Shown here: in pieces, positions 23,323 to 48,818 of the stretch
How the letters are laid out: each line of letters starts with the position of its first letter
How positions within the stretch are numbered: position 1 is the first letter of the stretch
NCBI GenBank assembly: GCA_001781415.1
Contig: MFLT01000001.1
Location: 51,600-115,599 of the forward strand
Length of the DNA stretch: 64,000 bases
DNA from: Candidatus Kaiserbacteria bacterium RIFCSPLOWO2_01_FULL_45_25
Lineage (GTDB): Bacteria; Patescibacteriota; Minisyncoccia; Phycocordibacterales; UBA918
Direction: 5' to 3'
Program-made: the position numbers and the translations under genes
The notes under the pieces: model-generated
What the model was told of the DNA's origin: nothing
Databases searched by the model: none
The model's input: the letters and a program-made list of their open reading frames with translations, nothing else

Positions 23323-23904
23323 ATGGACAATACAGAGTTCCAACTCAGTGATGAAGAAATAGTGGCTATGACTCTCCGTGAGCATAGCTCATTTGGTTTT
23401 ATTATTGAGCGCTATGAAGCCAAACTAAAGCGATACATTGGTCGACTTGGTGTGCGTAACTATGATGATCAAGCTGATGTCTTGCAGGAGATTTTTATTA
23501 AAGCCTACAAGAATTTAAACAGCTTTGATACCTCACTATCCTTTTCATCGTGGATTTATCGCATCGCCCACAATGAGGCGATTAGTTGGTACCGCAAACA
23601 CAATGTTCGTCCCGAAGGTCACCTTATAGCTGATGGTGAAGAAGTGTTGGCTCTCCTCAAGAGTAAAGAAGAGGGGGTCGAAGCAGCTTATGATAAAGAG
23701 GTAAACGCTGAGGAACTCGGGCGAGCCATGGAGGAAATTGATGAAAAGTACCGTGAGGTGCTGATTTTGCGGTATTTTGAACACAAAGAATACGAGGAAA
23801 TATCAGATATTTTGAAGATTCCAACTGGTTCGGTCGGAACCCTTATTTCCCGCGGCAAGAAACAGCTTTATAATGTACTAAACCAAAACGCCCTACGTAT
23901 ATAA
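23323..23904 (+). CDS. RNA polymerase sigma factor, sigma-70 family (ECF-like)
   Basis: Region 2 and region 4 helix-turn-helix features, 193 aa. Confidence 0.7.
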   Translation: MDNTEFQLSDEEIVAMTLREHSSFGFIIERYEAKLKRYIGRLGVRNYDDQADVLQEIFIKAYKNLNSFDTSLSFSSWIYRIAHNEAISWYRKHNVRPEGHLIADGEEVLALLKSKEEGVEAAYDKEVNAEELGRAMEEIDEKYREVLILRYFEHKEYEEISDILKIPTGSVGTLISRGKKQLYNVLNQNALRI

Positions 23905-23909
23905 CAGAT

Positions 23910-24773
23910 ATGGAAACATCACAGACAAACCAGCCAGATTTAAAGAATCAAATTCTGAGTAGAATTGAGAAGGATGCACTCTGTCCAGACTCCAGGCTCA
24001 TAATAAGTAGTAAGGAATACGCTATGTGGGGGCTGTGGTTTTTGACCGTTCTCCTCGGCGCTCTGTCTGTAGCGGTGACACTCTTTGTGCTGATGCATCG
24101 CCAGTATTCGTTCTATCAGGTCACACATACATCGTTTTTAACCTTTATGGTTGATGTCTTGCCATATCTGTGGATCGCTATGTTTTCTGTCATGGTCATC
24201 TTTGCGGTGTATAACTTTCGGCATACCAAACACGGCTATCGCTATCCGTTATGGAAGATTCTTGGTAGTAGTGTGATTTTGAGCTTGGCCGGCGGGGCTT
24301 TGCTGCACTTAGGTGGAGTTGGGTTTAGTCTAGACAGAACCATCGGTAATTTTTCTAAAGAATATACCTCACAAGAGAAGTTAGAGATGCGTTTCTGGCA
24401 AAACCCAGAAGAAGGTCGGCTGGTCGGTGTATTTCTGGGTGCTGAAGACGGCGTTCCGTTACCACTAGTGGTCCTTGAGGATGCGCGCGGTACTCGCTGG
24501 GAGATGAATGTTGCTGAATTAAATGATGTTGATATCAGAATAATTGAAAGTGGTAAGCGGGTGCGAGTGCTTGGTGTACTTGAAAATGCTTTACCAGCTC
24601 AGTTTTATGCTTGCGCCGTCTTTCCATGGATTTATGAACAGAGGTATTCAATGCACGAGCTCGGTGAAATGAAGCGGTCTATGCAGGAACGTATTTTGCG
24701 ACATACGCAGGCTTTACCTGGAGTGGTGGAAGAAGGAAAGTGCAGTCACTTGGTACTTAAAGGTGCGTTTTAA
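23910..24773 (+). CDS. Membrane protein downstream of the sigma factor; possible anti-sigma factor (by position only)
   Basis: Short cytoplasmic N-terminus, 3-4 TM helices, C-terminal soluble domain; starts 6 nt after the sigma gene. Confidence 0.3.
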   Translation: METSQTNQPDLKNQILSRIEKDALCPDSRLIISSKEYAMWGLWFLTVLLGALSVAVTLFVLMHRQYSFYQVTHTSFLTFMVDVLPYLWIAMFSVMVIFAVYNFRHTKHGYRYPLWKILGSSVILSLAGGALLHLGGVGFSLDRTIGNFSKEYTSQEKLEMRFWQNPEEGRLVGVFLGAEDGVPLPLVVLEDARGTRWEMNVAELNDVDIRIIESGKRVRVLGVLENALPAQFYACAVFPWIYEQRYSMHELGEMKRSMQERILRHTQALPGVVEEGKCSHLVLKGAF

Positions 24774-24929: not shown

Positions 24930-27900
24930 ATGAATAATTTATACGTACAAAATAGTTCGCTCGCTCGACTTTGGGCAGCCCTTACTATGTTAGCTGTTGT
25001 TTTAAGCGCCTTCAGTGCGCCTTTTTCTGTGTTTGCACAGGAAGTGCCAGAGGTAGTAGATCCAACTCCAATTGTTGACCCAGCACCAACAGATCTTCCT
25101 GATGGAGATGTAGATGGTGACGAAGATGAAGGAGATGGATTGCCGACGACCGGAGAAGAGTCGCTTCGAACGTTTAATATGTCTACGCCAAACGGCGGAC
25201 CAAGTCCAAAGGTGACTATTTGCCATGCTAACGAAAGTAACGAGCAGGCGAACAACCCATTTACGGACAATGATGTTGATGAGGATGGTCTAAATGGTCA
25301 CGGTGACCATGCTGATGATATTATTCCAGTAACTGATGATTTTCCGAATGGTCAAAACCTAACAACAGTTTATGCTGAGTTTGGTGGATTGACTGGTCAG
25401 CAAATTCTTGATGATGAATGTGATACACCAGAAAAGGAAGTAAAAATTTCAATCACCAAGATTATCTGTGAAGATGAGACCTTGCTTCCAAATGACGGCT
25501 ATACTGAAATTACAGCCGCTACTGCCGCTAATTTCTTGGCTGAAAATCCATCTTGTTATGAAGGTGAAGGTTTTGAGTTTCAATGGGCCAAGGGTGGAGT
25601 AAATACCACTGAAGATAACAGTGGTGAACTTGGTTCACCGTGGACAACCACAGACGAAACAGACAGTAATGGTAACGTAGTCATAACTCTATCTGAAAAG
25701 GATGTCAAAAATCAAAGTAAAATTTCAGTGCGAGAAGTTTGGAGCGCAGACTACATTCCATTTACTGGAAAGAACGGCAGTAATGTTTCAGCTGAACTAT
25801 ACTGTGCCAATGATGCAGCTAATTTCGATAACTTGGAATGGGTTGGTCAGAACGGAACTCTAGCACTTGATGAGACCTATCACTGTGTAGCCTGGAATGT
25901 TCCTGTACTTGAGGAGATTGAAATGTGTAAATTTAATGCACTAGAAGCTCCAATTGCCGGCTGGGAGATGACACTAACTAATGGAGACCAGTCATACACT
26001 CTTGAAACTGGAGAAAACGGTTGTGTATCAAAGATGGTTAATCCAAATATTGGTCCATGGACAACAAGTGAAGAGATGCAAAAAGATTGGGAACAAGTTG
26101 ATGTTTCTGTTCAAAACGGTTTTATTGATACAGAAGATGAAGTAACAGAGTACTGTGTATTCTTTGATGGTGAAGTAAAGCTTCCTATCACTAACTTCGT
26201 AGAAATTCCTGATACAGATAAGAGTTGTACATTCACTAATGAATATGTTGAACCTTGTGAAGATAAGCTTGATGGGGATTGGGCTAATAGTGTAGTGACG
26301 TCTGATCAGGGACTAAAGAAGAACGGTGCAGCTATAACTGACCCAAACCGCACTGATGATGAAAAGGTGCTAGGAGTAGAGGATTGGGTAGTTAACGGTT
26401 CAACTGGTTTCTTTTCTCTTGGATTTGGAGGTTCTGTCACTGTAGAGTTTGATAACTTTGTGCCAAATGTGCTTGGTAACGACATTGCTGTGTATGAAGC
26501 AACAAACGGCACCTATCCAGCTGAAACAGCAAAGGTAGAGGTTAGTCAGAACGGTACAGATTGGGAAGAGGTTGGTACGGCAAGTAATCTAAATGTAGAT
26601 CGAATTTCAAACTTTGATTTTGATTCAACTGGATTGGCTTGGATTAAGTTTGTTCGTGTCACTGACACTTCAAACCCAGCTCTCCATGTTAATGATGCTG
26701 ACGGATTTGATGTAGACGCAATTTCTGCCACGGAGTCACTTTGTGATGAACCAGAAGGACCAAAGTTTTCTGATGTGACTATGTGTAAGATTGATGGAAA
26801 TCAAAATGCACTTTCAGGTTGGAATCTCATGCTCCTCGGAGCCGAGGTAGATACTGTTAGTGTTTCAGCTACTAATGGTGCTGGTACAGACGTAGCTTTA
26901 GCTGCTGGGCCATACGTAGCCATTGCTTCAGGTACTTGGGAAAACCACCGTACTCCGCTTAACACTGTTGATGCGGAATACTCAACTGAAGACAATTGGG
27001 CTACTAACATGGACGGATTTACTGGTTATGGAACTGAAATTCTAGAACTAAAAGTCGGTGGAGCCTTTGGAGATTGGGGTGTTTACAATAGTTTGCATCG
27101 CTACGCTCGCGCTTTCGCTCAAGTAGCGGACGGAGTTACAAACTTTGCCGTTTCTGACAGTTATTATGGCGATAACACTGGCTCACTAAACGTGGCTGTG
27201 TATGAAGGCTACGCTGGTCTAACTGGTGCAAATGGCTGCGTAGTATTTGAAGATGTACCATTTGGCACTTATAACGTCGATGAAATCATGCAAGACGGTT
27301 GGCTTAATGCTTCGGGCCTTGGTGAGGTAACAGTTGATTCTGAAACAGAAAGTTTCACTGTTATTAATCGACCTGTAGATACTCCAGCTGAGGAAGTCGC
27401 TACCGTAGTGGCACACAAGATTGTGTGTACCGACGAAGCTGAGTTGCCAAACTGGGGTGCTGCAAACCTTAATAACATCTCTTCTTCAACAGCAGCTGAT
27501 TGGGTAGCCACTCACGACTCTTGCGAATTTGAAGCTGGTTGGGAATTTGAATGGGCCCCACAAGGCACTTCAAATCCAGACAACAACCTACCAACTAGTG
27601 GCCTTTATGGTGCGGCTGGTGGAAGCTGGACAACCTTTGGTCCAACAGACGTAAATGGAAAGACTCAAGTTTCTCTCTCTGCTGCGCAAATTGCTGGTAT
27701 GAGTAACATTTGGATGCGTGAAGTGCTTAAGGATGGATATATTCCTTTCACTTATGGTCCAGGTAATCTAACTAACGAAGACGACTACTCTGCCGAAATC
27801 TACTGTCATACTGACGCGTTGAATTATGACAACTACGACCGCGTAGACGGTATTGCGGTAGATAATACTTACTACTGTGTGGCGTGGAATCACGCTGAAG

Positions 27901-29087
27901 TACCAGCACCGGTTTGTGAAGCTGAGGTGGACTTGCTTACAAACGGTTCATTTGAAGATCCAGTAGTTACCAATAGTGGATTGTGGCAAAAATTCCCTAG
28001 TGTGACTGGTTGGTTGATTCAAAAAGTGGCAGATTTAACCGCCACTACACTTGAAATTCATAAAGGCTGGAGCGGTAATCAAGCCGCTGCTGGACTGCAG
28101 TATGTGGAGCTAGATGGTGACCATAGTACACAAGTTAGTCAGACTGTAGCAGTAATTCCTGGCGAAACCTATGACTTATCATGGGCTTTTGCTCCACGAC
28201 AAAACATCGCTGCTGAACAAAATCAGCTTGGAGTTTATGTTGATGGTGTACAAGTGGAGTCAGATGGACCAAGCTCAATTGGTACCGCTCTAACTATTGC
28301 TGATTGGCAAAATGGTACTGTGAGTTTTGTAGCCACAACCAGTTCAGTAACTATCTCTATGGTTGATGCTGGGCCAAGTAATTCATTTGGTACTTTCCTT
28401 GATGATGTATCGCTTAAGTGTAATCCAGATGGTGGAGATGATGAGGGTGATGGAGACGGTGATAATGACGAAGATGATACTTATCGTCTAGAGGGATATA
28501 TCTGGAATGACGACGATAGAAACACTCTGTGGGGTGAAGGTGAGCTTTCACTCGCTGGTTGGACTGTAACAGCCACCAAGGGTGCAACTACCTACTCAAC
28601 AACTACTGATGAGTCTGGCTACTACTACTTTGATGTACCAGCTGGTACCTGGACTATTTCTCAAGAAGTTCAAACTGATTGGGAACAAACCACGACTCCT
28701 GAATCATATGAGGTAATTGTGCCATCTCTAGTAACTCAAAGTTTGGTAGAACGAGTATTGGCGTACATTATCCCAGTAGCACACGCTGCAGTTGTAGAAA
28801 TAATCGATGACCTAGACTTTGGTAATGATTTTATTGGTACTACACCAAATCCTACTTCAAACGGTGGTGGCGGTGGCGGAGGTGGACGACTAGTTCGATC
28901 TACTCCAACCGTAGCTGGAGATTCAATCTCTACACCAACACCAATGCCGCTAGTATTGGGTGAGCAGGTATCAGTAGTGCCTTATGGTGCTCCTGGTACA
29001 GGACATGGTGGAACTTCTTCATCTATGAACGTTCTATCATTATTACAAATCCTTTTTACTAACCGAAAGACAGAACTCGTTAAGTAA
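24930..29087 (+). CDS. Large (1385 aa) secreted multidomain surface protein with candidate C-terminal sorting signal
   Basis: Signal peptide, acidic region, repeated prealbumin/Cna-B-like modules (GWEMTL../GWTVTATKG..YYFDVPAGTWTISQ), poly-Gly, then hydrophobic stretch plus a Lys/Arg-containing tail NRKTELVK. Confidence 0.6.
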   Translation: MNNLYVQNSSLARLWAALTMLAVVLSAFSAPFSVFAQEVPEVVDPTPIVDPAPTDLPDGDVDGDEDEGDGLPTTGEESLRTFNMSTPNGGPSPKVTICHANESNEQANNPFTDNDVDEDGLNGHGDHADDIIPVTDDFPNGQNLTTVYAEFGGLTGQQILDDECDTPEKEVKISITKIICEDETLLPNDGYTEITAATAANFLAENPSCYEGEGFEFQWAKGGVNTTEDNSGELGSPWTTTDETDSNGNVVITLSEKDVKNQSKISVREVWSADYIPFTGKNGSNVSAELYCANDAANFDNLEWVGQNGTLALDETYHCVAWNVPVLEEIEMCKFNALEAPIAGWEMTLTNGDQSYTLETGENGCVSKMVNPNIGPWTTSEEMQKDWEQVDVSVQNGFIDTEDEVTEYCVFFDGEVKLPITNFVEIPDTDKSCTFTNEYVEPCEDKLDGDWANSVVTSDQGLKKNGAAITDPNRTDDEKVLGVEDWVVNGSTGFFSLGFGGSVTVEFDNFVPNVLGNDIAVYEATNGTYPAETAKVEVSQNGTDWEEVGTASNLNVDRISNFDFDSTGLAWIKFVRVTDTSNPALHVNDADGFDVDAISATESLCDEPEGPKFSDVTMCKIDGNQNALSGWNLMLLGAEVDTVSVSATNGAGTDVALAAGPYVAIASGTWENHRTPLNTVDAEYSTEDNWATNMDGFTGYGTEILELKVGGAFGDWGVYNSLHRYARAFAQVADGVTNFAVSDSYYGDNTGSLNVAVYEGYAGLTGANGCVVFEDVPFGTYNVDEIMQDGWLNASGLGEVTVDSETESFTVINRPVDTPAEEVATVVAHKIVCTDEAELPNWGAANLNNISSSTAADWVATHDSCEFEAGWEFEWAPQGTSNPDNNLPTSGLYGAAGGSWTTFGPTDVNGKTQVSLSAAQIAGMSNIWMREVLKDGYIPFTYGPGNLTNEDDYSAEIYCHTDALNYDNYDRVDGIAVDNTYYCVAWNHAEVPAPVCEAEVDLLTNGSFEDPVVTNSGLWQKFPSVTGWLIQKVADLTATTLEIHKGWSGNQAAAGLQYVELDGDHSTQVSQTVAVIPGETYDLSWAFAPRQNIAAEQNQLGVYVDGVQVESDGPSSIGTALTIADWQNGTVSFVATTSSVTISMVDAGPSNSFGTFLDDVSLKCNPDGGDDEGDGDGDNDEDDTYRLEGYIWNDDDRNTLWGEGELSLAGWTVTATKGATTYSTTTDESGYYYFDVPAGTWTISQEVQTDWEQTTTPESYEVIVPSLVTQSLVERVLAYIIPVAHAAVVEIIDDLDFGNDFIGTTPNPTSNGGGGGGGGRLVRSTPTVAGDSISTPTPMPLVLGEQVSVVPYGAPGTGHGGTSSSMNVLSLLQILFTNRKTELVK

Positions 29088-29103
29088 TTAGTGAAAGTAC
29101 AAC

Positions 29104-29134
29104 AAAAGCCCGTTGCCGCAGGCAACGGGCTTTT
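29104..29134 (+). terminator. Rho-independent terminator
   Basis: GCCCGTTGCC-gca-GGCAACGGGC plus TTTT. Confidence 0.75.
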
Positions 29135-29177
29135 GTCTTGCTAAATGAATTAAATAAGCCTACTATTAAAACGTTAT

Positions 29178-29819
29178 ATGGACACTAAGGCAAAAACTGA
29201 CGTAATAGTAAAGGCAGTCACCTCGCGGCGAGGCAGGGCCCTACTATTTGGTGTTATCGTCGGCTCCCTAATTGGCCTATATCTATTTACTACCGATAAT
29301 CAGCCAACTGCAGAGTTGGTGGTTGAGGAGGCAGCAGCGCCACAAGAAGCGTATGCTTTGGCTCCATCAGAACCAACTAGGTTGCGGATTCCTAAGCTAG
29401 ATATTGATACTACTTTTGTGCCGCCGCTAGGTTTACTACCAAACGGTGAAGTGGCCGTGCCTGATTCTGATACAGAAGTAGGTTGGTATAAACACAGCCC
29501 AACTCCTGGCGCTCTTGGACCGGCGGTTATTTTGGGACATATAGATTCATATACTGGTCCAGCCGTGTTTTTCTATCTAGGCCAACTTGAACCTGGTGAC
29601 GATGTGTTTGTAGATCGTGCTGACGGCAGCACCGCTCACTTCAAGGTAGAGTCACTGGAACGACCACGTCAGTCTGAGTTTCCAACGGAGCGAGTGTATG
29701 GAAATATTGATCATGCTGGCTTACGACTCATTACTTGTTCGGGTATTTATGTAAAGGGTAATCAACGCTACACCCACAATTTGGTAGTGTACGCACGTTT
29801 GGTAAGTGAGGGTGGTTAA
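29178..29819 (+). CDS. Sortase family transpeptidase (class E/F-like), membrane anchored
   Basis: N-terminal TM, catalytic His (VILGHID), TLxTC-type Cys (LRLITC), conserved Arg. Confidence 0.75.
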   Translation: MDTKAKTDVIVKAVTSRRGRALLFGVIVGSLIGLYLFTTDNQPTAELVVEEAAAPQEAYALAPSEPTRLRIPKLDIDTTFVPPLGLLPNGEVAVPDSDTEVGWYKHSPTPGALGPAVILGHIDSYTGPAVFFYLGQLEPGDDVFVDRADGSTAHFKVESLERPRQSEFPTERVYGNIDHAGLRLITCSGIYVKGNQRYTHNLVVYARLVSEGG

Positions 29820-31027: not shown

Positions 31028-31471
31028 ATGGCTACTCCTGGAGAAAGTAAGGTGGTGGCTATCTCAAGTGCCGAGAAAGGTACCTCTCAAATGCACGATT
31101 TGTATGCTACTCGTCCAGCGGCTGGGTTTCCAGCGCCTGGCGATGACTTAGTGGAAAAACCATTAGATATCAACGACCTACTAATAGACAACCCAACAGC
31201 GACGTTTTTTGTAAAAGTTGAAGGGGATTCAATGGAGGGAGCCAAGATTTTCTCTGGAGATATTTTGGTAGTAGATAGATCAATTATCCCTACAACTGGT
31301 AAGATTGTGGTGGCGGCGGTGTATGGGGAAATGGTGGTTAAGCGCCTCGTTATACAATCTAATGGCACTTTTCTCATGTCTGAAAAGGATGGATATGAGC
31401 CAATTGTGGTTAGTGATAATGATGATTGTTTTGTGTGGGGTGTGATAGTTGGGAGTGTAAGGGTACTTTAA
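31028..31471 (+). CDS. umuD: UmuD-like S24 peptidase (translesion polymerase V accessory subunit); start may be the Met at 31091
   Basis: GFPAPGDDLVEKPLDINDLLIDNPTATFFVKVEGDSM aligns closely with E. coli UmuD ([37 protein letters not shown]); Ser/Lys dyad present. Confidence 0.75.
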   Translation: MATPGESKVVAISSAEKGTSQMHDLYATRPAAGFPAPGDDLVEKPLDINDLLIDNPTATFFVKVEGDSMEGAKIFSGDILVVDRSIIPTTGKIVVAAVYGEMVVKRLVIQSNGTFLMSEKDGYEPIVVSDNDDCFVWGVIVGSVRVL

Positions 31472-31532: not shown

Positions 31533-32726
31533 ATGGTTCAAAAAATAACAAAATTCAGTCAAAGACTGGCGCTAGCAGCGCTTATTGCTGTTTTGGTAGT
31601 GCCAAGTCCGGTCACTGCTGCAACTGTGGATGTAGCAGGATGGATTCCGTGGTGGCAGGCAGAGGAAGGTATAGAGAGCGCTACCAAGAATATCGATAAA
31701 TTAGATACGGTCTATCCATTTGTCTATGAGGTGGATGAGGACGGAGATATTGAGTCAAAGACCAGCCTCACTACTCGTACCTGGAGAAACTTCTTTAAAC
31801 TGGCTGATAAGGAAGATGTAGAGATTATCCCAACCATTGCTTGGTTTGATGGAGAGCAAATTCATGAAATCCTGAGTGATAGACGTGACAGAACTGCACA
31901 CATTAATGATATTTATGACCTTGTCCAAAAAGGTAAGTACGATGGAATTAATATCGACTACGAGCAGAAGTTAGCTGAAACCAATAAATACTTTTCGCTA
32001 TTCCTTAAAGAATTAAACAAGAAACTAGGTCGCAAGCTGTTGACCTGTGCTATTGAGGCTCGGACTCCAGCAGAATCACGCTTCAAACAAGTACCAGCTG
32101 TACTTGAGTTTGCCAATGATTATGAAGAAATCGAGAAGTACTGTGACCGGATAGAAATCATGACCTACGACCAACAACGGGCGGACTTGAAATTAAACGA
32201 AGAGCGAACGGGAGTGCCATACATGCCGGTCGCTGATAAAGACTGGGTAGAAAAGGTGATTGACTTAGCGCTTGAGGATTTTTCTAGCGATAAGGTATAT
32301 CTTGGGGTTCCGACCTACGGCCGAGCTTGGGATGTAAAGGTGTCACCGAACTGGTACCGTGACTATGTGCTAGCAGGTACTCTCAACGTGCCACGTCTAC
32401 GTGAATTAACTAAAGAATATAAAGTAACAGAAGGACGCTCAGCTGGTGGTGAAGCAGTGTTTAGTTACTTCCCAACCACCTCTCCTTTTGCGCTTTTGGC
32501 TTCTCTCCCAACTCCTCCGGGAACAGCCAAGGGCTATGAGAATGCTGCCAAAGCGCTTCTATTCGCCAATATGACTGGTATGGAAGTGCCGGTAAGGTTT
32601 GCTACCTACTCAGACTCTGAGGCGATTGAAGATAAGGTTAAGTTGGCGGAAAAGCACAACTTGGCCGGCATCGCCATCTTTAAGATTGATGGGGAGGAGG
32701 ATCAGGATGTCTGGAAACTGTTTTAG
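31533..32726 (+). CDS. Secreted glycoside hydrolase family 18-like protein
   Basis: Signal peptide; YDGINIDYE (DxxDxDxE GH18 catalytic motif). Confidence 0.6.
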
Positions 32727-32830: not shown

Positions 32831-33304
32831 TTAATTCTTAATGTGTTTGGCGAAGTAATCAGACAAAGCTCGAAATACATCGTGTTTAAAAGTATCTGGC
32901 AGAGATAGCAGGTGATCAAAGGTAGACCACTTTACCTCTAGGAACTCTTTATCTACAGCTTTCTCTAAGTCTACTTCGACTCCCGGCTTTAGTTTGAGGA
33001 AGTACCACTGGTGGGCTTGCCCGAAGCAATTAGGGTCTTTGAGAGTGTGGCGGAGGTTTGGGGTGTATTCATATAGTAACCAGTCTGGGTACTTGGTGAC
33101 TTGTTCGATGTCATTTGGAGTCAGACCTGTCTCCTCCAGAAGTTCACGCCAGAGGTTTTCTTCACTGGTTTCGCCGGGGTCCATGCCACCCTGTTGGAAC
33201 TGCCAGAGGTCGGGGAAGTCGGCTCGGGAGAAGAGGAGAATCTCACCTTGGTCGTTGTAAATTACACTACCGGCTCCTACTCTGAAATACTGGTTTTGTG
33301 ACAT
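32831..33304 (-). CDS. NUDIX hydrolase (RppH-like)
   Basis: Nudix box GGMDPGETSEENLWRELLEETGL. Confidence 0.8.
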   Translation of the reverse strand: MSQNQYFRVGAGSVIYNDQGEILLFSRADFPDLWQFQQGGMDPGETSEENLWRELLEETGLTPNDIEQVTKYPDWLLYEYTPNLRHTLKDPNCFGQAHQWYFLKLKPGVEVDLEKAVDKEFLEVKWSTFDHLLSLPDTFKHDVFRALSDYFAKHIKN

Positions 33305-33331: not shown

Positions 33332-34588
33332 ATGAAGTATATCGCCCTCTTAGATTGTAATAATTTCTTTGTTTCGTGCGAACGGTTGTTTCGACCTGAC
33401 TTACTGGGGAAGCCGGTCGTGGTACTTTCTAGTAATGATGGCTGTGTGGTGGCACGCTCAAAAGAGATAAAAGACAGAGGGATTGGAATGGGTGTCCCTT
33501 ACTTTCAGATAAAGGACACGTTAAATGAAATAGGGGCGACAGTTTTCTCCTCACACTTCGCACTGTATCGGGACGTCTCCAGGCGTGTCTTTGAGGTGGT
33601 GCGCACCTGCCAGTCTGAGATTGAGCAGTATTCTATTGATGAATGTTTCTTCACCTTTGAATCTTACGATCCCCACACCCTAGTGGCGGCGATTAAGCAG
33701 CAGGTAGAACAGGAAGTAGGGATACCGGTTTCGATTGGAGTAGCGTCTTCAAAGACACAAGCCAAGTACGTAAATACCGTCGCCAAAAAGACAACTGGTA
33801 TTGCCATCTGGGGAGAAGAAGAGTGGGAGAGGGCCGCTGCCGATATTCGGCTTTCAGAGATTTGGGGAGTGGGCCGTGGGCGAGCTAGGCAGTTTGATGA
33901 GAAGGGAATTAGAACCGTAGCTGATTTACTCAAGTGCTCTAGATCAAGGATTGATGCCCTTTTTGGAATAGAAGGGGTGCGTTTGCAAGCAGAACTGAGA
34001 GGGGAGCCGGTCCTTGGTATTAAAGCCAGTCGGCCATTACAAAAAAGCCTGATGAGTACGCGCTCGTTTGCCAAAGAGACTAGTGATTATGATGTGCTTC
34101 TAAATGCCATCAAATACCACCTCTACCAGGTGGTTAAAGATTTAGAGAGTATGGACGCCAAAACCAACGTTATTCGCGTGATGATTACCCCAAGTCGTTA
34201 TGGTGATTATGCGTTTTATGGTGCTAGCAAGGAAGCGTTACTTACCGCCCCAACTAGAGACTTATTTACCTTACAGCAGGCCGCTGTGGGTCTATTAAAA
34301 CAATGCTTTAATCCAGAAGTACCATACAAAAAAGCCGGGGTTGTTTTATCGGGAATTTCAAGCACTGAGGCTGAAACTGGATCGTTGTTTGATAATTTTG
34401 AATCAGCAGACAATAACGGAAAAAACTCGCTGTCCGCAACGATTTTTTCTATCAATAAAAAACATGGTAAACCACTAGTGCAGCTAGGCAGTGTGAGTGG
34501 CACAAATAAAAAATGGGAGTCAAGAAAGGACGCTGTCTCACCGTCGTATACCACCAGTTGGTCTGACCTAAAGGTGGTCAGAACATAG
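33332..34588 (+). CDS. umuC: Y-family DNA polymerase UmuC (Pol V catalytic subunit)
   Basis: N-terminus LLDCNNFFVSCERLFRPDLLGKPVVVLSSNDGCVVARS almost collinear with E. coli UmuC (CDVNAFYASCETVFRPDLWGKPVVVLSNNDGCVIARN). Confidence 0.85.
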   Translation: MKYIALLDCNNFFVSCERLFRPDLLGKPVVVLSSNDGCVVARSKEIKDRGIGMGVPYFQIKDTLNEIGATVFSSHFALYRDVSRRVFEVVRTCQSEIEQYSIDECFFTFESYDPHTLVAAIKQQVEQEVGIPVSIGVASSKTQAKYVNTVAKKTTGIAIWGEEEWERAAADIRLSEIWGVGRGRARQFDEKGIRTVADLLKCSRSRIDALFGIEGVRLQAELRGEPVLGIKASRPLQKSLMSTRSFAKETSDYDVLLNAIKYHLYQVVKDLESMDAKTNVIRVMITPSRYGDYAFYGASKEALLTAPTRDLFTLQQAAVGLLKQCFNPEVPYKKAGVVLSGISSTEAETGSLFDNFESADNNGKNSLSATIFSINKKHGKPLVQLGSVSGTNKKWESRKDAVSPSYTTSWSDLKVVRT

Positions 34589-36061: not shown

Positions 36062-39000
36062 GTGTTATCATATTTTGTATATTCATTAATTTTCCGCACC
36101 ATGTCTCACACGTTTCATGTAAAAGTTTTAATACAGGTCGTTTTTGTTTTACTTGCCTTTGTAAGTTTTCTTTTTATCAATACTAAGGATGTTTTTGCTT
36201 CTGCAACATCTACACCACGTCTGGAGCAACTCGTTAAAGATACTCAAAATACCCTATATACTGGGCAGAGACAACATCTCTCATGCGATGACCTGAGTGG
36301 ACACATTGAGTCAGTGACTATTTCTATGGCTAATATCTATCCGAATACAGACGGACAATATCGGATGAGTGTTCTTGGAGGTGTTGGTCCTACCCGCATA
36401 AGTGAAAACATAGTTGTTTTGGATGGAGATGACTATAGCGTTCAGCGAGACGTGACATTCACTTTCAATCCGGCCATTGATGTTGACACTGATCTGTGTG
36501 CCAATGGTGGGACAGTGAGGTTTGAACTCGTGAATTTGAGCCTATCAGGGGCAATTGTTTTTGGCTCGGCTGCAGACACATACCCAGGCGGTTTTTTCTC
36601 AAAGGGTTCAATCACACCAAAAATTGCCGATATGTATTTCATTATTAACGGAAATGCAGAGGTGAATCATCTACCTGTTCTGAATGAAGTTGGAGACAAG
36701 GCTGCTACTGAAGGATCGTTACTAACTTTCAGTTTGAGCGCGACGGATCAAGATCAGTTTGCAAAGCCAACATACAGTGTCACTGGACTTCCAGAGCACG
36801 CAGTCTTTATTGGTGATACCTTTTATTGGGTGCCTGGATTTGATCAGGCTGGCAGTTATTCAATTGAACTAAAAGCAACGGACGCTGGAAATGCTGGTAT
36901 GCCATCTGAATTTGACACAGAGACCATATCTATAATTGTTTCTGAAGCAACACCAGAACTTAATAATCTAAGCCAACTCGTTAAAGATACTCAAAGTCTC
37001 TTATACACTAACCTAAGACAATCTCTCTCGTGCGATGACTTGAGTGGACATATTGAGTCGTTGACTATTTCTATGGCTAATAACTCTACGGTAACGGATG
37101 GACGATATCAAATGCAAGTTTCTGGAGGTATTGGTCCTATTTATGTTAGTGAAAACATAGTTGTTTTGGATACAGATGAGTATAACGTTCAGCAAGATGT
37201 GACGTTTACTTTCAATCCGGCGATTGATGTTGATACAGATTTGTGTGCTGGTGCTGGGACAGTGAGGTTTGGTCTCGTGACTTTAGACACATCAGGGGCA
37301 ATTGTTTTTGGCTCGGCAGCAGACACATACCTGGGTGGCATTGTCTCGCAGAGTGTACAGACACGAAAAATTGCCGATATGTATTTCATTATTAACGGAA
37401 ATGCAGAAGTGAATCATTCTCCTGTTTTGGATGAAGTTGGAGACAAGGCTACTACTGAAGGGTCTTTGTTAACTTTAAAGTTGAGCGCGACGGATCAAGA
37501 TCAGTATGCCAAACCAACATACGGTGTTACCGGACTTCCAGAACATGCAGTCTTCATCGATGATACCTTTTATTGGGTGCCTGGATTTGATCAGGCTGGC
37601 AGTTATTCAATTGAACTAAAAGCAACGGACGCTGGAAACGCTGGCATACCGCCTGAATCTGACACGGAGACTATATCCATCACTGTCTCTGAAGCAACAC
37701 CAGAACTAAATAGTCTCAGCCAACTCGTTAAAGATACTAAAACTATCCTATACCCTGGGCAAAGACAATCTCTCTCATGCGATGACCTGAGTGGACATAT
37801 TGAGTCGTTGACTGTTTCTATGGTTAATATCTCTCCGAATACGGACGGACAATATCAGATGAATGTTCTTGGTGGTATTAGTCCTACCTATATTAGTGAA
37901 AACATAGCCGTTTTGGATGCAGATGACTATAACGTTCAGCAAGATGTGACGTTTACTTTCAATCCGGCTATTGATGTTGATACAGATCTTTGCGCCAATG
38001 GTGGGACAGTGAGGTTTTCTCTCGTGAATTTAAGCACAGCAAGTGCAAGTGTTTTTGGCTCGGCGGCAGACACATACCCGGGGGGTATTGTCTCACAGAG
38101 TGTATATCCACTACCAAAAATTGCCGATATGTATTTCATTATTAACGGAAATGCAGTTAGTAACAGTGCCCCTACCTTAACTACTATTGGAAATCAAATA
38201 GGAACAGAAGGAGAAACTCTTCAGTTTACTGTGGTTGGTAACGACATCGATGGTGATGCGCTAACTTATAGTGCTTCTGGAACTCCAACAGGAGCGACGT
38301 TCGATGCAAATACTGGTTTGTTCTCTTGGACTCCCGGATATTCAGATGCTGGAATATATGATGTAACATTTACTGTAACTGAAGATACACCCGAAATGCT
38401 TTCTGCTTCTGAGACTGTTTCTATTGAAGTCCTCAATACAAACCGTGCACCAGTCCTTGAACCAATTGGCAATCAATCAACTGCCGAAAACCAAAACCTC
38501 TCATTCACTATCTCAGCAACCGACCCCGATGGAGACAGTCTCACATACTCCGCAGCAAACCTTCCGTCAGGAGCAACCTTTGACGCACAGACACAGACAT
38601 TTAGCTGGACACCAGGATTCAACGATGCAGGGAACTATAGCGACATTGAATTCACTGTCATAGACAGTGGTAGTCCAATGGAGTTGGATATTGAGCTTAT
38701 TACTATCACAGTGGGCAATGTGAACCGCGCTCCAGTTATCGACAATCCAGGACCGCAAGAAGTCTTGGAAACAGAGACATTGTCATTTAGTGTTTCAGCA
38801 GTTGATCCAGATGGCGATGCTGTTACATATAGCGCAAGTAACACACCGGCAGGAAGTACATTTAGTCCTGCAACTGGAGTATTTTCTTGGACACCTAGTC
38901 TCTCAGATGAGGGTGTCTACATGGTGACTTTTATTGCCAGTGATGACGGGTCACCACAGGAATCAGCAGAACTTACAGTAGTTATCACTGTTGGTGATAA

Positions 39001-39265
39001 CCCAACACCAACTGAACAGGCAGAAGATTTAGTTGAAGATATTGTTGTCTTTGCTTTTCCGGCAAACGTAGAAAACTCTTATTTGGCAAATCTTCATAAG
39101 GTTGAGCAATTTATTCTTGATGGAAAAATTAATGCTGCCTTAAATCAATTAGATGCCTTTGTTAATAAGCTTAATCAAGACTACAATCAGGGTGTTATCA
39201 CTCAACAAGAGTATGATAGTCTTCTTGGTGCAGCCAATAACTTAATCGCAGATTTGCAGAATTAA
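36062..39265 (+). CDS. Large surface protein: three about 249-aa tandem repeats followed by He_PIG/cadherin-like Ig domains and a C-terminal coiled segment
   Basis: N-terminal TM; repeated xPxLExIGNQ..E.Q.LSF.ISA.DPDGD.LTYSA..LP.GATFD...FSWTPG modules. Confidence 0.65.
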   Translation: MLSYFVYSLIFRTMSHTFHVKVLIQVVFVLLAFVSFLFINTKDVFASATSTPRLEQLVKDTQNTLYTGQRQHLSCDDLSGHIESVTISMANIYPNTDGQYRMSVLGGVGPTRISENIVVLDGDDYSVQRDVTFTFNPAIDVDTDLCANGGTVRFELVNLSLSGAIVFGSAADTYPGGFFSKGSITPKIADMYFIINGNAEVNHLPVLNEVGDKAATEGSLLTFSLSATDQDQFAKPTYSVTGLPEHAVFIGDTFYWVPGFDQAGSYSIELKATDAGNAGMPSEFDTETISIIVSEATPELNNLSQLVKDTQSLLYTNLRQSLSCDDLSGHIESLTISMANNSTVTDGRYQMQVSGGIGPIYVSENIVVLDTDEYNVQQDVTFTFNPAIDVDTDLCAGAGTVRFGLVTLDTSGAIVFGSAADTYLGGIVSQSVQTRKIADMYFIINGNAEVNHSPVLDEVGDKATTEGSLLTLKLSATDQDQYAKPTYGVTGLPEHAVFIDDTFYWVPGFDQAGSYSIELKATDAGNAGIPPESDTETISITVSEATPELNSLSQLVKDTKTILYPGQRQSLSCDDLSGHIESLTVSMVNISPNTDGQYQMNVLGGISPTYISENIAVLDADDYNVQQDVTFTFNPAIDVDTDLCANGGTVRFSLVNLSTASASVFGSAADTYPGGIVSQSVYPLPKIADMYFIINGNAVSNSAPTLTTIGNQIGTEGETLQFTVVGNDIDGDALTYSASGTPTGATFDANTGLFSWTPGYSDAGIYDVTFTVTEDTPEMLSASETVSIEVLNTNRAPVLEPIGNQSTAENQNLSFTISATDPDGDSLTYSAANLPSGATFDAQTQTFSWTPGFNDAGNYSDIEFTVIDSGSPMELDIELITITVGNVNRAPVIDNPGPQEVLETETLSFSVSAVDPDGDAVTYSASNTPAGSTFSPATGVFSWTPSLSDEGVYMVTFIASDDGSPQESAELTVVITVGDNPTPTEQAEDLVEDIVVFAFPANVENSYLANLHKVEQFILDGKINAALNQLDAFVNKLNQDYNQGVITQQEYDSLLGAANNLIADLQN
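36200..38150 (+). repeat. Three tandem about 747-bp near-identical coding repeats inside the 36062-39265 gene
   Basis: Repeat starts at about 36200, 36955 and 37690 share long identical stretches (…CAACTCGTTAAAGATACTCAAA…TCATGCGATGACCTGAGTGGACA…); the reverse-strand artefact ORFs MKYISAIFG recur at a 747-750 bp period. Confidence 0.8.
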
Positions 39266-39399: not shown

Positions 39400-40497
39400 A
39401 TGAATTCACAATACTTTCCACGAACAGCGGTTGTTTTATTTGCGTTATTAGCCTTCATTTTCTTCATATTTAGTCCCGCCCAGGCGTTTGCTCAGGGAGC
39501 GGGTGTGGGAATCGTTCCAGCGGTAATTGATCCAGCCAAACAATTTGAACCTGGTGATGTGGCTCAGTTCTCCATTCGGGTTACGAACCTCACTGACGGT
39601 GACATGACGTACTACTTATATAAGAGAGACATTGTCGGTGTACGTGATCAGGGAATTCCGATTTTTGCTGATAGTTCATCTGGTACTACTGGGTATGAAC
39701 TTTCTGATTGGATTACTCTACCAAGTGACAGTATATTTATTGAAGCTGGAAAAGAAATTGAGGTGCCGTTTACTATGACTGTGCCGCAAGATGTTTCACC
39801 TGGGGCTCACTTCGGAAGTATTGCTGTCACTGCTGAGCCGCCAAAGCTGCGTGAGTCTGGTGCAGGGATTGGTTATGAAGTAGCCAACATCATCACCATT
39901 CGAATTGCTGGAGACGCGGTTGACCAAGCGCGCATTCGTCAGTTCTCAACCTCAAAATATATTTATGGTTCAACCAATGTTGAGTTTAGCGCTCGTATTG
40001 AAAATGAAGGAAATACACTAATTAGTCCAACGGGACCACTTGAAGTCATCAATATGTTTGGTGAGCGAGTAGCGATACTTACTTTTAATGAGTCAAAGGC
40101 TGGAATTTTCCCAAAGACTTCACGAAGTGATGGACTGCGAGATTTTAAAGTGACTTGGGCTGATGAATCTCCAGGCTTTGGTCGTTATGAAGCGATCTTG
40201 AGTGCTGTCTACGGTCCAGAAGGCAAGATGAATACTATTTCTAGTACAGTTACCTTTTGGATTTTGCCGATGAATATTATTACTCCGGCTTTGATAGTGC
40301 TTGGTGTACTATTCTTAGTAATATATGTATCGGTCAAGATGTATGTCCGTCGCTCAATGGCCGTAGCAACTTCAGGAGTGACTCGTCGCTTGGTGCGTTC
40401 ACGTCGTCAGAATGAGTTCCCGACCTTGTTGGTCCTTATCTCGATGTTGGCACTTGGAGCTCTCTTCTTTATAATCCTGCTCCTCATTTTTGCCTAG
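39400..40497 (+). CDS. Hypothetical cell-surface protein with signal peptide and C-terminal double TM anchor (DUF916-like architecture, tentative)
   Basis: Signal peptide AFA-QG, about 270-aa beta-rich domain, C-terminal TM plus Arg-rich segment. Confidence 0.4.
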   Translation: MNSQYFPRTAVVLFALLAFIFFIFSPAQAFAQGAGVGIVPAVIDPAKQFEPGDVAQFSIRVTNLTDGDMTYYLYKRDIVGVRDQGIPIFADSSSGTTGYELSDWITLPSDSIFIEAGKEIEVPFTMTVPQDVSPGAHFGSIAVTAEPPKLRESGAGIGYEVANIITIRIAGDAVDQARIRQFSTSKYIYGSTNVEFSARIENEGNTLISPTGPLEVINMFGERVAILTFNESKAGIFPKTSRSDGLRDFKVTWADESPGFGRYEAILSAVYGPEGKMNTISSTVTFWILPMNIITPALIVLGVLFLVIYVSVKMYVRRSMAVATSGVTRRLVRSRRQNEFPTLLVLISMLALGALFFIILLLIFA

Positions 40498-40543: not shown

Positions 40544-40584
40544 TCATGTTTTCGTTCGGTCGCGCCTCGTATCTGTGGGTTTGT
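40544..40584. repeat. 41-bp conserved motif, copy 2 (see 9337-9377), upstream of extended -10 TGATATAAT at about 40597-40605
   Basis: TCATGTTTTCGTTCGGTCGCGCCTCGTATCTGTGGGTTTGT. Confidence 0.5.
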
Positions 40585-40615
40585 GAATGCGCTCTTAGTG
40601 ATATAATTATCATAA

Positions 40616-41818: not shown

Positions 41819-41864
41819 TAGCTTATTCTGACGGAACGGTACGATATACTTAGTCTATAAAGTT

Positions 41865-48766: not shown

Positions 48767-48818
48767 ATAATATAATAAACCTATTTCTGTCTTGGGAAGA
48801 CAGAGGGGTTGTTATGTA

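What the first reader, a model, noticed from the sequence alone, without database searches (positions are those of the whole stretch)
24930..29819. Sortase with an adjacent 1385-aa surface protein that lacks a canonical LPXTG but has a sorting-signal-like C-terminus
A sortase with His/Cys/Arg catalytic residues (29178-29819) lies immediately downstream of a large secreted protein. That protein ends with a poly-Gly stretch, a motif-like VPYGAPGTGHGG segment, a hydrophobic helix (VLSLLQILF) and a Lys/Arg-containing tail (TNRKTELVK). This is the tripartite architecture of a sortase substrate, but the motif is unconventional. The pairing suggests a dedicated housekeeping-type sortase with a non-LPXTG recognition motif (possibly xAPGTG).
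Basis: inference. Interest (0 to 1): 0.55.

Follow-up and report, generated by a model that had tools for sequence, protein, structure and literature searches.

The report
Class F sortase with private non-LPXTG substrate
In an uncultivated Parcubacteria-type (CPR) bacterium, a class F sortase sits directly after a giant surface protein whose tail carries a conserved non-LPXTG signal (VLGEQVSxVPxGAPx[T/A]GxGG), giving a testable substrate for the least understood sortase class.

Summary
A 1385-aa secreted protein (24930-29087) is followed 90 bp later by a 213-aa membrane-anchored sortase (29178-29819). The sortase passes NCBI's curated class F cut-off.

The protein's C-terminus is not a chance look-alike. 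It is one copy of a conserved ~22-residue module, [P/G]xVLG[E/D]Q[V/T]SxVPxGAPx[T/A]GxGG, followed by a short hydrophobic stretch and a Lys/Arg tail.
- A profile of the module finds 390 protein clusters among 1.84 billion, and the 150 best matches are all at the extreme C-terminus.
- 37 to 41 of 46 related sortase genes with enough upstream DNA have such a protein directly upstream.
- 7 of 7 tail-bearing proteins chosen without regard to sortases have a sortase directly downstream.
- Where the syntenic protein ends in a peptidoglycan-binding domain instead, the sortase has moved next to another tail-bearing gene.

Three points need correction:
- The signal is much longer than five residues.
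- Thr is replaced by Ala in about one third of tails.
- The sortase has an invariant Asn at the canonical catalytic Arg position. In the fetched loci this Asn goes with non-LPXTG tails.

NCBIfam's GVDTG-CTERM model is a weak relative and misses this tail. I rate it a new variant of a known kind.

The parts
24930..29087 (+). Gene for the 1385-aa secreted surface protein, the predicted sortase substrate
   Evidence: ORF. Domains: DUF642/choice-of-anchor C (residues 1002-1163), SdrD_B/SpaA (1189-1264), weak F5/8 type C. Homologues are from Parcubacteria/Paceibacterota.
24930..25037 (+). Predicted Sec signal peptide, residues 1-36 (cleavage after VFA). The n- and h-regions are conserved among homologues.
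   Evidence: Read from the sequence. N-termini of tail-bearing and PG-binding-terminated homologues share MN.F....AR.FAA.T..SLLLSAFPA.FFVAEA. The cleavage site is an inference.
28911..28931 (+). Upstream 'VAGDSIS' element (residues 1328-1334). A second V[LA]G[DE]S.S copy sits about 10-15 residues before the main signal in many tails.
   Evidence: e.g. EVLGDSDSAEPLVLGEQV..., QVLGVTNTPQPTPLVLGEQV.... Function unknown.
28947..29012 (+). Conserved core of the sorting signal, residues 1340-1361: PLVLGEQVSVVPYGAPGTGHGG
   Evidence: The core HMM gives 49.5 bits and is the only hit in the window. Position frequencies from 54 unique tails. 390 cluster representatives at E<=1e-3, and the 150 best are all C-terminal.
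28989..29003 (+). APGTG (residues 1354-1358), the LPXTG-equivalent pentapeptide. The predicted scissile bond is Thr1357-Gly1358.
   Evidence: The register is inferred from intermediate tails with LPxTG at the same place. Variants APNTG, APGTG, APNAG, APDTG and AADAG. The cleavage site itself is an inference.
29025..29057 (+). Short hydrophobic segment MNVLSLLQILF (residues 1366-1376)
   Evidence: Across 160 tails the hydrophobic core has a median of 9 residues, and the distance from GG to the first K/R has a median of 17.
29058..29084 (+). Charged C-terminal tail TNRKTELVK (residues 1377-1385)
   Evidence: A K/R-containing end is present in the tails.
29102..29136 (+). 16-bp GC-rich hairpin with a flanking A-tract and T-tract, terminator-like, between the substrate and sortase genes
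   Evidence: RNAfold gives -32.6 kcal/mol for the intergenic stretch. The hairpin is kept with different stem sequences in L001, L003, L010, L014, L024 and L028. Sequence.
29138..29166 (+). Promoter-like TTGCTA-N17-TACTAT just upstream of the sortase start codon
   Evidence: CTTGC ... TA[CG]TATT is conserved in the intergenic alignment. It falls below the threshold of the consensus scan. Inference only.
29178..29819 (+). Class F sortase, 213 aa
   Evidence: NF033748 class_F_sortase 176.9 bits against a cut-off of 166. Pfam Sortase. AF2 model and sortase fold. 1122 homologues.
29226..29294 (+). N-terminal membrane anchor of the sortase (helix, residues about 17-39)
   Evidence: Hydrophobic stretch RALLFGVIVGSLIGLYLF. 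Helix 17-39 in the AF2 model.
29538..29540 (+). His121 codon (ILGHID), catalytic His
   Evidence: Invariant in 54 of 54 CPR-type and 30 of 30 more distant sortases.
29736..29738 (+). Cys187 codon (RLITCSG), catalytic Cys
   Evidence: Invariant.
29778..29780 (+). Asn201 codon (YTHNLVVYA), at the position where LPXTG-type relatives have the catalytic Arg
   Evidence: 54 of 54 Asn in CPR-type sortases. The same gap-free column is Arg in L061, L073, L075, L077, L080, L085 and L088. The local match to T. fusca SrtE is ...SHRLIVHAELV. The literature notes Asn for Arg in class F (PMC8703055).
23323..24773 (+). ECF sigma factor (23323-23904) and a 287-aa membrane protein (23910-24773, putative anti-sigma) directly upstream of the substrate gene
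   Evidence: Pfam Sigma70_r2/r4. The same pair is upstream of the substrate in L001, L089, L092, L094, L095 and L096. A regulatory role is an inference.

Best explanation
This is a dedicated class F sortase and its adjacent substrate in a CPR (Parcubacteria/Paceibacteria-type) bacterium.

Proposed mechanism:
1. The 1385-aa protein is exported through Sec using its N-terminal signal peptide.
2. Its C-terminal hydrophobic and basic tail holds it at the membrane.
3. The membrane-anchored sortase recognises the extended signal PLVLGEQVSVVPYGAPGTGHGG.
4. Cys187 attacks the Thr1357-Gly1358 bond of APGTG, which is the LPXTG equivalent.
5. The acyl-enzyme is resolved by an amino group of the cell-wall precursor. 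The large DUF642/SdrD-like ectodomain ends up covalently displayed on the cell surface.

What is shown:
- The gene pair and the class of the enzyme.
- The conservation, strictly C-terminal position and recurrence of the signal.
- The two-way genomic linkage of sortase and signal.
- The co-occurrence of Asn at the canonical Arg position with non-LPXTG signals.

What is inferred: the cleavage site, the transpeptidation itself, and peptidoglycan as the acceptor.
For: Enzyme:
- Class F HMM score above the curated cut-off.
- Sortase fold.
- His121 and Cys187 invariant.

Signal:
- About half of the ectodomain homologues end in the same module.
- In 54 unique tails V3, P12, G19 and G21 are invariant, although V3, G19 and part of P12 were constrained by the regex that collected them. 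MAFFT alignments of the tails, without the regex, also give V, G, P, G, G, G invariant columns.
- The tail profile finds 390 cluster representatives at E<=1e-3 among 1.84e9 proteins. The best 150 all match within the last residues.
- It is the only hit in the 64-kb window, and in the related loci it lies 15-32 residues from the C-terminus.

Linkage:
- Of 46 unique CPR-type sortases with at least 400 bp of upstream DNA, 37 have a strict-pattern tail gene ending within -200 to +400 bp. Four more have looser variants (L031, L035, L049, L051).
- 7 of 7 tail-bearing proteins picked by ectodomain or by tail alone have a sortase immediately downstream. One of these is in an unrelated neighbourhood (L097).
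- In L094 the syntenic large protein ends in PG_binding_1 and has no sortase after it. The sortase lies about 4 kb away, right after a different 598-aa tail-bearing protein.

Register: relatives carry LPxTG at the aligned place, followed by xGG (LPGLPNTGNG, LPDLPDTGNG, VGLPNTGAGG).

Destination: homologous ectodomains alternatively end in a peptidoglycan-binding domain, PF01471. This points to the wall as the destination.

Specificity: among the fetched sortases, Arg at position 201 goes with [LF]PxTG upstream substrates. Asn goes with GAPx[T/A]G, GGVDGG, GVPTG or AVNTG.
Against: - There is no biochemical evidence for any step.
- The P1 Thr, normally central to sortase recognition, is Ala in about 35% of tails.
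- The hydrophobic segment is short: 11 residues here, median 9. As I recall, classical wall-sorting signals have about 15-20.
- An AlphaFold run of sortase domain + poly-Gly + tail gave no confident docking (tail pLDDT below 50).
- No clean sortase column co-varies with the Thr or Ala variant.
- The CPR envelope and the acceptor are unknown.
- The substrate gene has its own terminator-like hairpin, and the sortase appears to have its own promoter. In this clade the two genes are neighbours rather than a strict operon.
- Only 64 kb of the genome was available, so 'dedicated' cannot be proven genome-wide.
Confidence: 0.72

Rival explanations
1. The sortase does process the tail, but in another register or with another outcome. 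It might cut at VP-x-G|A, where Pro12 and Gly14 are more conserved than Pro16 and Thr18. Or it might hydrolyse and release the protein, or transfer it to an acceptor other than peptidoglycan, such as another protein, a lipid or a glycan.
For: P12, G14, G19 and G21 are more conserved than the 'LPXTG-like' P16 (42 of 54) and T18 (33 of 54). Thr is replaced by Ala in one third of tails. The conserved VLGEQVS part has no counterpart in classical signals. The catalytic Arg is replaced by Asn. The CPR wall acceptor is unknown.
Against: Intermediate tails place a canonical LPxTG exactly over AP-x-T-G, not over VP-x-G-A. G19, the position after T/A, is invariant, as expected for P1'. The alternative PG-binding C-termini of homologues point to the wall.
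Confidence: 0.15
2. The pair is a pilus or fibre assembly system. The sortase would polymerise the SpaA/CnaB-type protein, or proteins, as class C sortases do.
For: Substrates carry SpaA/SdrD_B (CnaB-like) domains. Some loci have two tail-bearing genes in tandem before one sortase (L026/L027 and L091), which resembles pilus clusters.
Against: The window and most loci have a single substrate of very variable size (330-1680 aa) and architecture. The best family match is class F, with no match to class C at E<=0.01. No lid-like ordered segment precedes the catalytic domain in the model (residues 43-54 have pLDDT below 50). I did not search for a pilin motif or E-box.
Confidence: 0.08
3. The C-terminus is only a membrane anchor, and the adjacency to the sortase is inherited synteny without a functional link. 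The sortase's real substrates would lie elsewhere.
For: The whole neighbourhood is syntenic in this clade: RluB | ECF sigma | anti-sigma | big protein | sortase | CAP | S24 | GH18 | NUDIX | DinB. A terminator-like hairpin separates the two genes.
Against: The sortase follows the tail when synteny breaks (L094, L097). The link holds down to about 45% sortase identity on many unrelated contigs. The conserved 22-residue module sits outside the hydrophobic part, which a plain anchor would not need. No LPXTG protein is present in the window.
Confidence: 0.05

Closest known systems
Class F sortases (NCBIfam NF033748 / InterPro IPR042001). The only characterised member is Cutibacterium (Propionibacterium) acnes SrtF.
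   Same: The window enzyme and its CPR relatives score above the curated class F cut-off. They have the membrane anchor, His and Cys. They also have Asn at the canonical Arg position, which the literature reports for class F (PMC8703055).
   Different: The characterised enzyme is described as a housekeeping sortase for LPXTG (PMC8225981). The roles of the other class F sortases are unknown, and a quadruple srtF deletion in Actinoplanes had no phenotype (PMC13251363). Here the enzyme is in a CPR bacterium and is paired one-to-one with an adjacent substrate whose signal is not LPXTG.
NCBIfam NF058571 'GVDTG_CTERM' sorting domain
   Same: It is the only library model that touches these tails. Scores are 15-27 bits on CPR tails, and 24.8 bits on the VLPRGGVDGGDGG tail that precedes a bona fide class F sortase in L058/L059. 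The layout is the same: P-x-G-(G/A)-(V/P)-x-T-G-x-G-G, then a hydrophobic segment and a basic end.
   Different: All CPR tails tested fall below the 29-bit cut-off, and the window's tail gets no hit even at E<=10. The CPR module has AP in place of GV, a conserved VLGEQVS prefix and frequent Thr-to-Ala. I found no paper on GVDTG, and I could not read the model's description.
Class E sortases and the LAXTG signal (Streptomyces SrtE1/E2, T. fusca SrtE)
   Same: This is the precedent for a sortase class with a non-LPXTG motif in high-GC Gram-positives. SrtE structures are among the best fold matches.
   Different: Class E keeps Leu at P4 and the catalytic Arg. It acts on many dispersed substrates such as chaplins. 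The window enzyme scores only 22 bits on the class E model.
Classical SrtA/LPXTG cell-wall sorting signal (TIGR01167)
   Same: Same tripartite logic: a motif, a hydrophobic segment and a positively charged end within the last ~35 residues, together with an N-terminal signal peptide.
   Different: There is no TIGR01167 hit. P4 is Ala rather than Leu and P1 is Thr or Ala. A further ~14 conserved residues lie upstream. The hydrophobic core is short.
'Choice-of-anchor' surface proteins (e.g. TIGR04362 choice-of-anchor C / DUF642)
   Same: The substrate carries a DUF642/choice-of-anchor C-like domain. Its homologues do switch anchors, ending either in the sortase tail or in a PG_binding_1 domain.
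   Different: It scores below the family cut-off (55 against 120 bits). The anchor used here is not one of the named CTERM domains.

Membership tests
Class F sortase (NF033748) | Score at or above the curated whole-protein cut-off of the class F model, and better than on the other class models | tested here: met
   176.9 bits against a cut-off of 166. Class E 22 bits, class D 16.3, class GN 21.3. CPR relatives score 167-180 bits.
Class F sortase (NF033748) | Sortase beta-barrel fold with the conserved His and the TLxTC-type Cys | tested here: met
   AF2 pLDDT 85.5. Top Foldseek PDB hits are sortases at E of about 1e-8. H121 and C187 (RLITC) are invariant.
Class F sortase (NF033748) | Asn in place of the canonical catalytic Arg (reported for actinobacterial class F, PMC8703055) | tested here: met
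   N201 is invariant in 54 of 54. The same gap-free alignment column is Arg in the LPXTG-type relatives. Spatial proximity to Cys187 could not be measured because no coordinates were available.
Class F sortase (NF033748) | Transpeptidase activity on a defined sorting signal | not testable with these tools
   Needs enzyme assays.
Sortase substrate (cell-wall sorting signal) | N-terminal signal peptide plus a C-terminal motif, hydrophobic segment and basic tail within about 35-40 residues of the end | tested here: met
   Signal peptide and tail read from the sequence. The core lies 22 residues from the C-terminus. The hydrophobic core is only 11 residues, which is shorter than usual.
Sortase substrate (cell-wall sorting signal) | Genomic co-occurrence of the signal with its sortase | tested here: met
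   37-41 of 46 sortases have an adjacent tail. 7 of 7 tails have an adjacent sortase. In L094 the sortase follows the tail.
LPXTG cell wall anchor domain (TIGR01167) | Match to the LPXTG anchor model, with LPXTG in the C-terminal signal | tested here: not met
   No hit at E<=10. The only LPxTG is at residue 71 and is not conserved.
GVDTG-CTERM sorting domain (NF058571) | Score at or above the 29-bit curated cut-off | tested here: not met
   The window tail gets no hit. Other CPR tails score 12-27 bits. It is a related but distinct variant.
Pilus-type (class C) sortase system | Class C sortase with a lid, and pilin subunits with a pilin-motif Lys and an E-box | tested here: inconclusive
   The window enzyme gets no class C hit at E<=0.01. 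No ordered lid is seen in the model. I did not search for pilin motifs. Two tandem substrates occur in a few loci.

The most novel reading that the evidence does not exclude
Class F sortases that carry Asn instead of the catalytic Arg would form a separate specificity class. They would read an extended signal of about 22 residues (E-x-V-x-V-x-P-x-G-[A/G]-[P/V]-x-[T/A]-G-x-G-G), in which neither the Leu nor the Thr of LPXTG is required.

Each enzyme would be a private partner of the surface protein encoded just upstream. In CPR bacteria that partner is a hypervariable, domain-shuffled giant protein under ECF-sigma control. It is plausibly the host-attachment adhesin of these episymbionts.

The short hydrophobic tail and the loss of Arg could also mean a different acceptor or outcome than classical lipid II transpeptidation.
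Probability: 0.3. Interest if true: 0.75.

Novelty: new variant of a known kind. Interest (0 to 1): 0.58.

Why it matters
Class F is the sortase class with the least known biology. One enzyme has been characterised, on LPXTG, and a quadruple knockout in Actinoplanes had no phenotype (PMC13251363).

This locus and its ~40 relatives supply three things the field lacks:
- a specific cognate substrate for each enzyme;
- a defined non-LPXTG recognition sequence that can be synthesised and assayed;
- a sequence correlate of specificity (Asn versus Arg after the catalytic Cys).

For CPR/Patescibacteria, whose envelope and host-attachment machinery are largely unknown, it points to a covalently displayed, rapidly diversifying giant surface protein and the enzyme that would anchor it.

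A sortase with an orthogonal motif of the type (G)APxTG-xGG, or one with Ala at P1, could also be useful for protein ligation alongside SrtA.

For annotation, the tail is missed by current LPXTG and GVDTG models. A dedicated HMM would label several hundred protein clusters.

Tried and rejected
1. The search for related loci with the 21-tail alignment failed because no stretch was conserved enough. With 6 tails it returned only 2 confirmed loci out of 67 pattern matches in GTDB genomes.

2. I looked for co-variation between the sortase sequence and Thr or Ala at P1. The top mutual-information columns are all variable, lineage-like sites, and none separates the two groups cleanly.

3. I tried AlphaFold docking of the tail to the sortase.
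- An unpaired alignment including tails was misaligned by MAFFT and was not used.
- The accepted run, chimera plus sortase homologues, left the linker and tail below pLDDT 50. It gives no information on the binding mode.

4. Sequence searches of the PDB find only weak sortase matches: E = 1e-3 with the single sequence, nothing at 1e-3 with the profile. No class F structure was available for groove comparison.

5. The N-terminal LPTTG at residue 71 was considered as a possible site and rejected. It is not conserved in the closest homologues, and no hydrophobic or basic segment follows it.

6. The downstream CAP-domain membrane protein was considered as a functional partner or substrate and rejected. 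It has no tail. In L094 it stays with the S24/GH18 genes while the sortase sits elsewhere.

7. Literature searches on class F sortase, sortase with Parcubacteria, Patescibacteria or CPR, and GVDTG found no description of this signal.
Full report
**What is there.** The window carries a 1385-aa ORF (24930-29087, +) followed after 90 bp by a 213-aa ORF (29178-29819, +).
- The second ORF is a sortase. Pfam Sortase gives E = 6.9e-23. NCBIfam class_F_sortase gives 176.9 bits against a curated cut-off of 166, with all other sortase classes far lower.
- An AlphaFold model built on 26 homologues has mean pLDDT 85.5. It shows an N-terminal helix (17-39, the membrane anchor), a disordered linker and a beta-barrel. 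Its best Foldseek matches in the PDB are all sortases of classes E, C, A and D, at E of about 1e-8.
- By sequence the PDB holds only marginal relatives, so no class F structure was available for comparison.
- The large protein starts with a Sec-type signal peptide. It contains a DUF642/choice-of-anchor C-like domain (residues 1002-1163), an SdrD_B/SpaA (CnaB-like) domain (1189-1264) and a weak F5/8 type C match.
- Homologues of both proteins come from Parcubacteria/Paceibacterota/Nomurabacteria metagenome-assembled genomes. The rest of the window looks like a CPR genome.

**The tail is a conserved module, not a chance resemblance.**
- Among 70 ectodomain homologues, about half end with the same pattern. 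Most of the others end in a PG_binding_1 domain instead.
- From 54 unique tails the consensus is [P/G]-x-V-L-G-[E/D]-Q-[V/T]-S-x-V-P-x-G-A-P-x-[T/A]-G-x-G-G. In that set V3, P12, G19 and G21 are invariant. V3, G19 and part of P12 were constrained by the regex used to collect the tails, but MAFFT alignments of tails without the regex show the same invariant columns.
- A profile of 20 tails, searched against 1.84 billion cluster representatives, finds 390 proteins at E<=1e-3. In all 150 best the match ends at or within a few residues of the C-terminus. The proteins range from 300 to 1700 aa with varied architecture.
- In those 137 additional tails the pentapeptide is APNTG (44), APNAG (21), APDTG (17), APDAG (9), APGTG (8), AADAG (8), AANTG (8) and others. 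The 'Thr' position is Thr in 88 and Ala in 46.
- Many tails have a second V[L/A]G[D/E]S.S element 10-15 residues upstream. Here it is VAGDSIS.
- A core HMM gives 49.5 bits for the window protein and nothing else in the 64-kb window. In all related loci it hits only 15-32 residues from a C-terminus.
- No canonical LPXTG signal is present in the window. The single LPTTG at residue 71 lies in an acidic N-terminal linker and is not conserved.

**The sortase and the tail are genomically coupled.** I fetched 80 metagenome loci with related sortases and several contigs by exact protein look-up.
- The nearest upstream same-strand ORF of almost every CPR-type sortase ends in this tail, with gaps of -23 to +126 bp.
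- Counted strictly, 37 of 46 unique sortases with at least 400 bp of upstream DNA have it. Four more have looser variants: PVGGVSAGAGG, YPGAPNAGAGG, SLGAANTGAGG, and a tail 560 bp away.
- In the reverse direction, four tail-bearing proteins chosen only by ectodomain homology and three chosen only by the tail profile all have a sortase immediately downstream. One of these sits in an unrelated neighbourhood (L097).
- The most telling case is L094. At the syntenic position (ECF sigma, anti-sigma, big protein, CAP, S24, GH18) the big protein ends in PG_binding_1 and no sortase follows it. The sortase sits about 4 kb away, directly after a different 598-aa protein that does carry the tail. So the sortase follows the tail, not the locus.
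- A few loci have two tail-bearing genes in tandem before one sortase (L026/L027 and L091).
- In about half a megabase of related DNA, tails occur only in these clusters.

**Register and relation to LPXTG.**
- Several relatives carry a canonical motif at the aligned place: DLPGLPNTGNG, DLPDLPDTGNG, GLPDTGMG and VGLPNTGAGG (L080). So A-P-x-T-G corresponds to L-P-x-T-G, and the following x-G-G is shared.
It predicts cleavage between Thr1357 and Gly1358.
- Pro12 and Gly14, upstream of the pentapeptide, are more conserved than Pro16 and Thr18. The VLGEQVS stretch has no counterpart in classical signals. The recognised element is probably much longer than five residues.

**The enzyme differs from canonical sortases at the Arg position.**
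- In an HMM alignment of all fetched sortases, His121, Cys187 and Asn201 are invariant in the 54 CPR-type sequences.
It is present in 46 of 54, and it is Ser/Thr/His in more distant class-F-like enzymes.
- Column 201 aligns gap-free from the Cys. It is Arg in L061, L073, L075, L077, L080, L085 and L088. The upstream substrates of these carry [L/F]PxTG (ALPNTG, GFPNTG, GLPNTG, GLPTTG, GLPNTG, ELPKTG, ELPKTG).
- The same column is Asn in every sortase whose upstream substrate has a non-canonical tail. These are the CPR GAPx[T/A]G; L057-L059 LPIGGVAAG and LPRGGVDGGDGG; L070, L079 and L084 GVPSG and GVPTG on DUF4397 proteins; and L083 and L086 AVNTG and GVETG.
- The local match YTHNLVVYAKLV to SHRLIVHAELV of T. 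fusca SrtE points the same way. An alternative HMMER alignment puts Arg197 on the Arg of C. perfringens SrtD instead.
- A published remark says class F enzymes have Asn in place of Arg (PMC8703055).
- In this sample the Arg-to-Asn change and the loss of Leu at P4 go together. The sample is small and not corrected for phylogeny.

**What is known.**
- The literature I could search describes one class F enzyme, from P. acnes, acting on LPXTG (PMC8225981).
- It states that the physiological roles of class F sortases are unknown. A quadruple srtF deletion in Actinoplanes had no phenotype (PMC13251363).
- CPR papers note that sortases are common (PMC6744442) but give no motif.
- NCBIfam does hold a recent model, NF058571 'GVDTG_CTERM sorting domain'. 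It weakly matches CPR tails (12-27 bits, cut-off 29). It scores 24.8 bits on the L058 tail. The near-identical tail in L059 sits next to a sortase that passes the class F cut-off (202.5 bits).
- The window's own tail gets no hit at E<=10, and no paper mentions GVDTG in this sense.
- So the general idea of a non-LPXTG sorting domain of this shape is known at database level. The CPR module, its tight pairing with class F sortases and the Asn/Arg correlate are not described in what I could reach.

**Mechanism proposed.**
1. The protein is exported through Sec.
2. It is retained by the C-terminal hydrophobic and basic tail.
3. The membrane-anchored class F sortase recognises the extended signal.
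4. Cys187 attacks the Thr1357-Gly1358 bond.
5. The ectodomain is transferred to a wall-precursor amine.

That homologous ectodomains alternatively carry a peptidoglycan-binding domain supports the wall as destination. Related genomes encode PBP and Mur enzymes. Everything after 'recognises' is inference.

Points that do not fit comfortably:
- Ala replaces Thr in one third of tails.
- The hydrophobic core is short: 11 residues here, median 9 over 160 tails, and a median of only 17 residues from GG to the first Lys/Arg.
- An AlphaFold chimera gave no confident docking.
- No sortase column tracks the Thr or Ala choice.

**Transcription context.**
- A 16-bp GC-rich hairpin flanked by A and T runs (29102-29136) follows the substrate's stop codon. 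It is conserved with different stem sequences in six related loci.
- It is followed by a conserved CTTGC...TA[C/G]TATT promoter-like element before the sortase start.
- The sortase is then tightly packed with the CAP-domain and S24 genes (gaps of 23 and 3 bp).
- In other clades the substrate and sortase genes overlap.
- An ECF sigma and putative anti-sigma pair precedes the substrate gene here and in six related loci.

**Verdict.** This is a class F sortase with a private, adjacent substrate bearing a conserved non-LPXTG sorting module, widespread in Parcubacteria-type CPR bacteria. I rate it a new variant of a known kind. Interest is moderate to good, because it gives the orphan class F a concrete, assayable substrate and a candidate specificity determinant, and it identifies a covalently displayed giant surface protein in CPR.

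Noticed in passing
window 48771-64000 (+): A giant ORF starts at 48771 and runs off the end of the window (more than 5076 aa). The first 1333 aa give only a weak BclA_C-like hit. Its C-terminus, and so its anchor type, is outside the window.
   Followed up: partly
window 44527-46437 and 47149-48705 (+): A dockerin-domain protein (636 aa, Big_6/Big_13 + Dockerin_1) and a cohesin-domain protein (518 aa) are encoded close together. This could be a cohesin-dockerin surface assembly in a CPR genome.
   Followed up: no
window 29102-29166; L001, L003, L010, L014, L024, L028 intergenic regions: A terminator-like hairpin, conserved in structure but with different stem sequences, lies between the substrate and sortase genes. 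A conserved promoter-like CTTGC...TA[CG]TATT follows it. The -10-like box ends only 11 nt before the sortase ATG, so the leader would be very short.
   Followed up: partly
window 24930-25037; N-termini of P0002-P0036 and P0195-P0324: Tail-bearing and PG-binding-terminated homologues share an unusually conserved signal peptide (MN.F....AR.FAA.T..SLLLSAFPA.FFVAEA). This hints at a specialised export or targeting signal, as I recall YSIRK-type signals being in Gram-positives.
   Followed up: partly
window 28911-28931; many tails: A second V[L/A]G[D/E]S.S element lies 10-15 residues upstream of the VLGEQVS core, separated by a Pro/Thr-rich linker. Its function is unknown.
   Followed up: no
L094 7001-10981; P0013, P0017, P0018, P0020, P0025, P0026, P0031 and others: Close ectodomain homologues end in a PG_binding_1 domain with a conserved ...TGWVYQLTRWKINNIVCPG... 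end instead of the sortase tail. This is a natural 'choice of anchor' between non-covalent and presumably covalent wall attachment.
   Followed up: partly
L005 1651-6587 (also L003 1156-5695): Upstream of one sortase lies a cluster with four genes: a camelysin/M73-like N-terminus + DUF642 protein, an S26 signal-peptidase-like gene, a Lamin-tail-domain protein, and a 353-aa protein with a deviant tail (VLGDQISQWPLGGLALGSGG, with Leu at the 'Thr' position).
   Followed up: partly
L070 8805-9638, L081 1148-2152, L084 1005-1802, L079, L083, L086: DUF4397 proteins with GVPTG, GVPSG or AVNTG tails sit directly upstream of Asn-type sortases. These sortases score 105-143 bits on the class F model, which is below the cut-off. 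They probably form another family of non-LPXTG sortase-substrate pairs.
   Followed up: partly
window 31028-31471, 31533-32726, 32831-33304 (-), 33332-34588: An S24 (UmuD/LexA-like) peptidase gene and an IMS-family (DinB/UmuC-like) polymerase gene are separated by a GH18 gene and a NUDIX gene. This order is conserved across the clade.
   Followed up: no
window 40546-42677 (+): Two FGE-sulfatase-domain paralogues (41006-41818 and 41865-42677) are preceded by an overlapping 162-aa ORF (40546-41034) that has no Pfam hit. They lie downstream of a WxLIP_PGBD-like protein (39400-40497) and a 1067-aa He_PIG/Big_9/cadherin-like protein (36062-39265). The same arrangement is seen in L001 and L003.
   Followed up: no
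window 25140-25154 (residues 71-75 of the large protein): An LPTTG lies in the acidic N-terminal linker. It is not conserved in homologues and is not followed by a hydrophobic segment, so it is most likely a chance match.
   Followed up: yes
L061 5842-6033; L075 9567-9815: Small ORFs of 63 and 82 aa end ...ALPNTGGGGAALYK and ...GLPNTGGGGARFIR directly upstream of Arg-type sortases. They have an LPNTG followed by GGGG but almost no hydrophobic tail.
   Followed up: no
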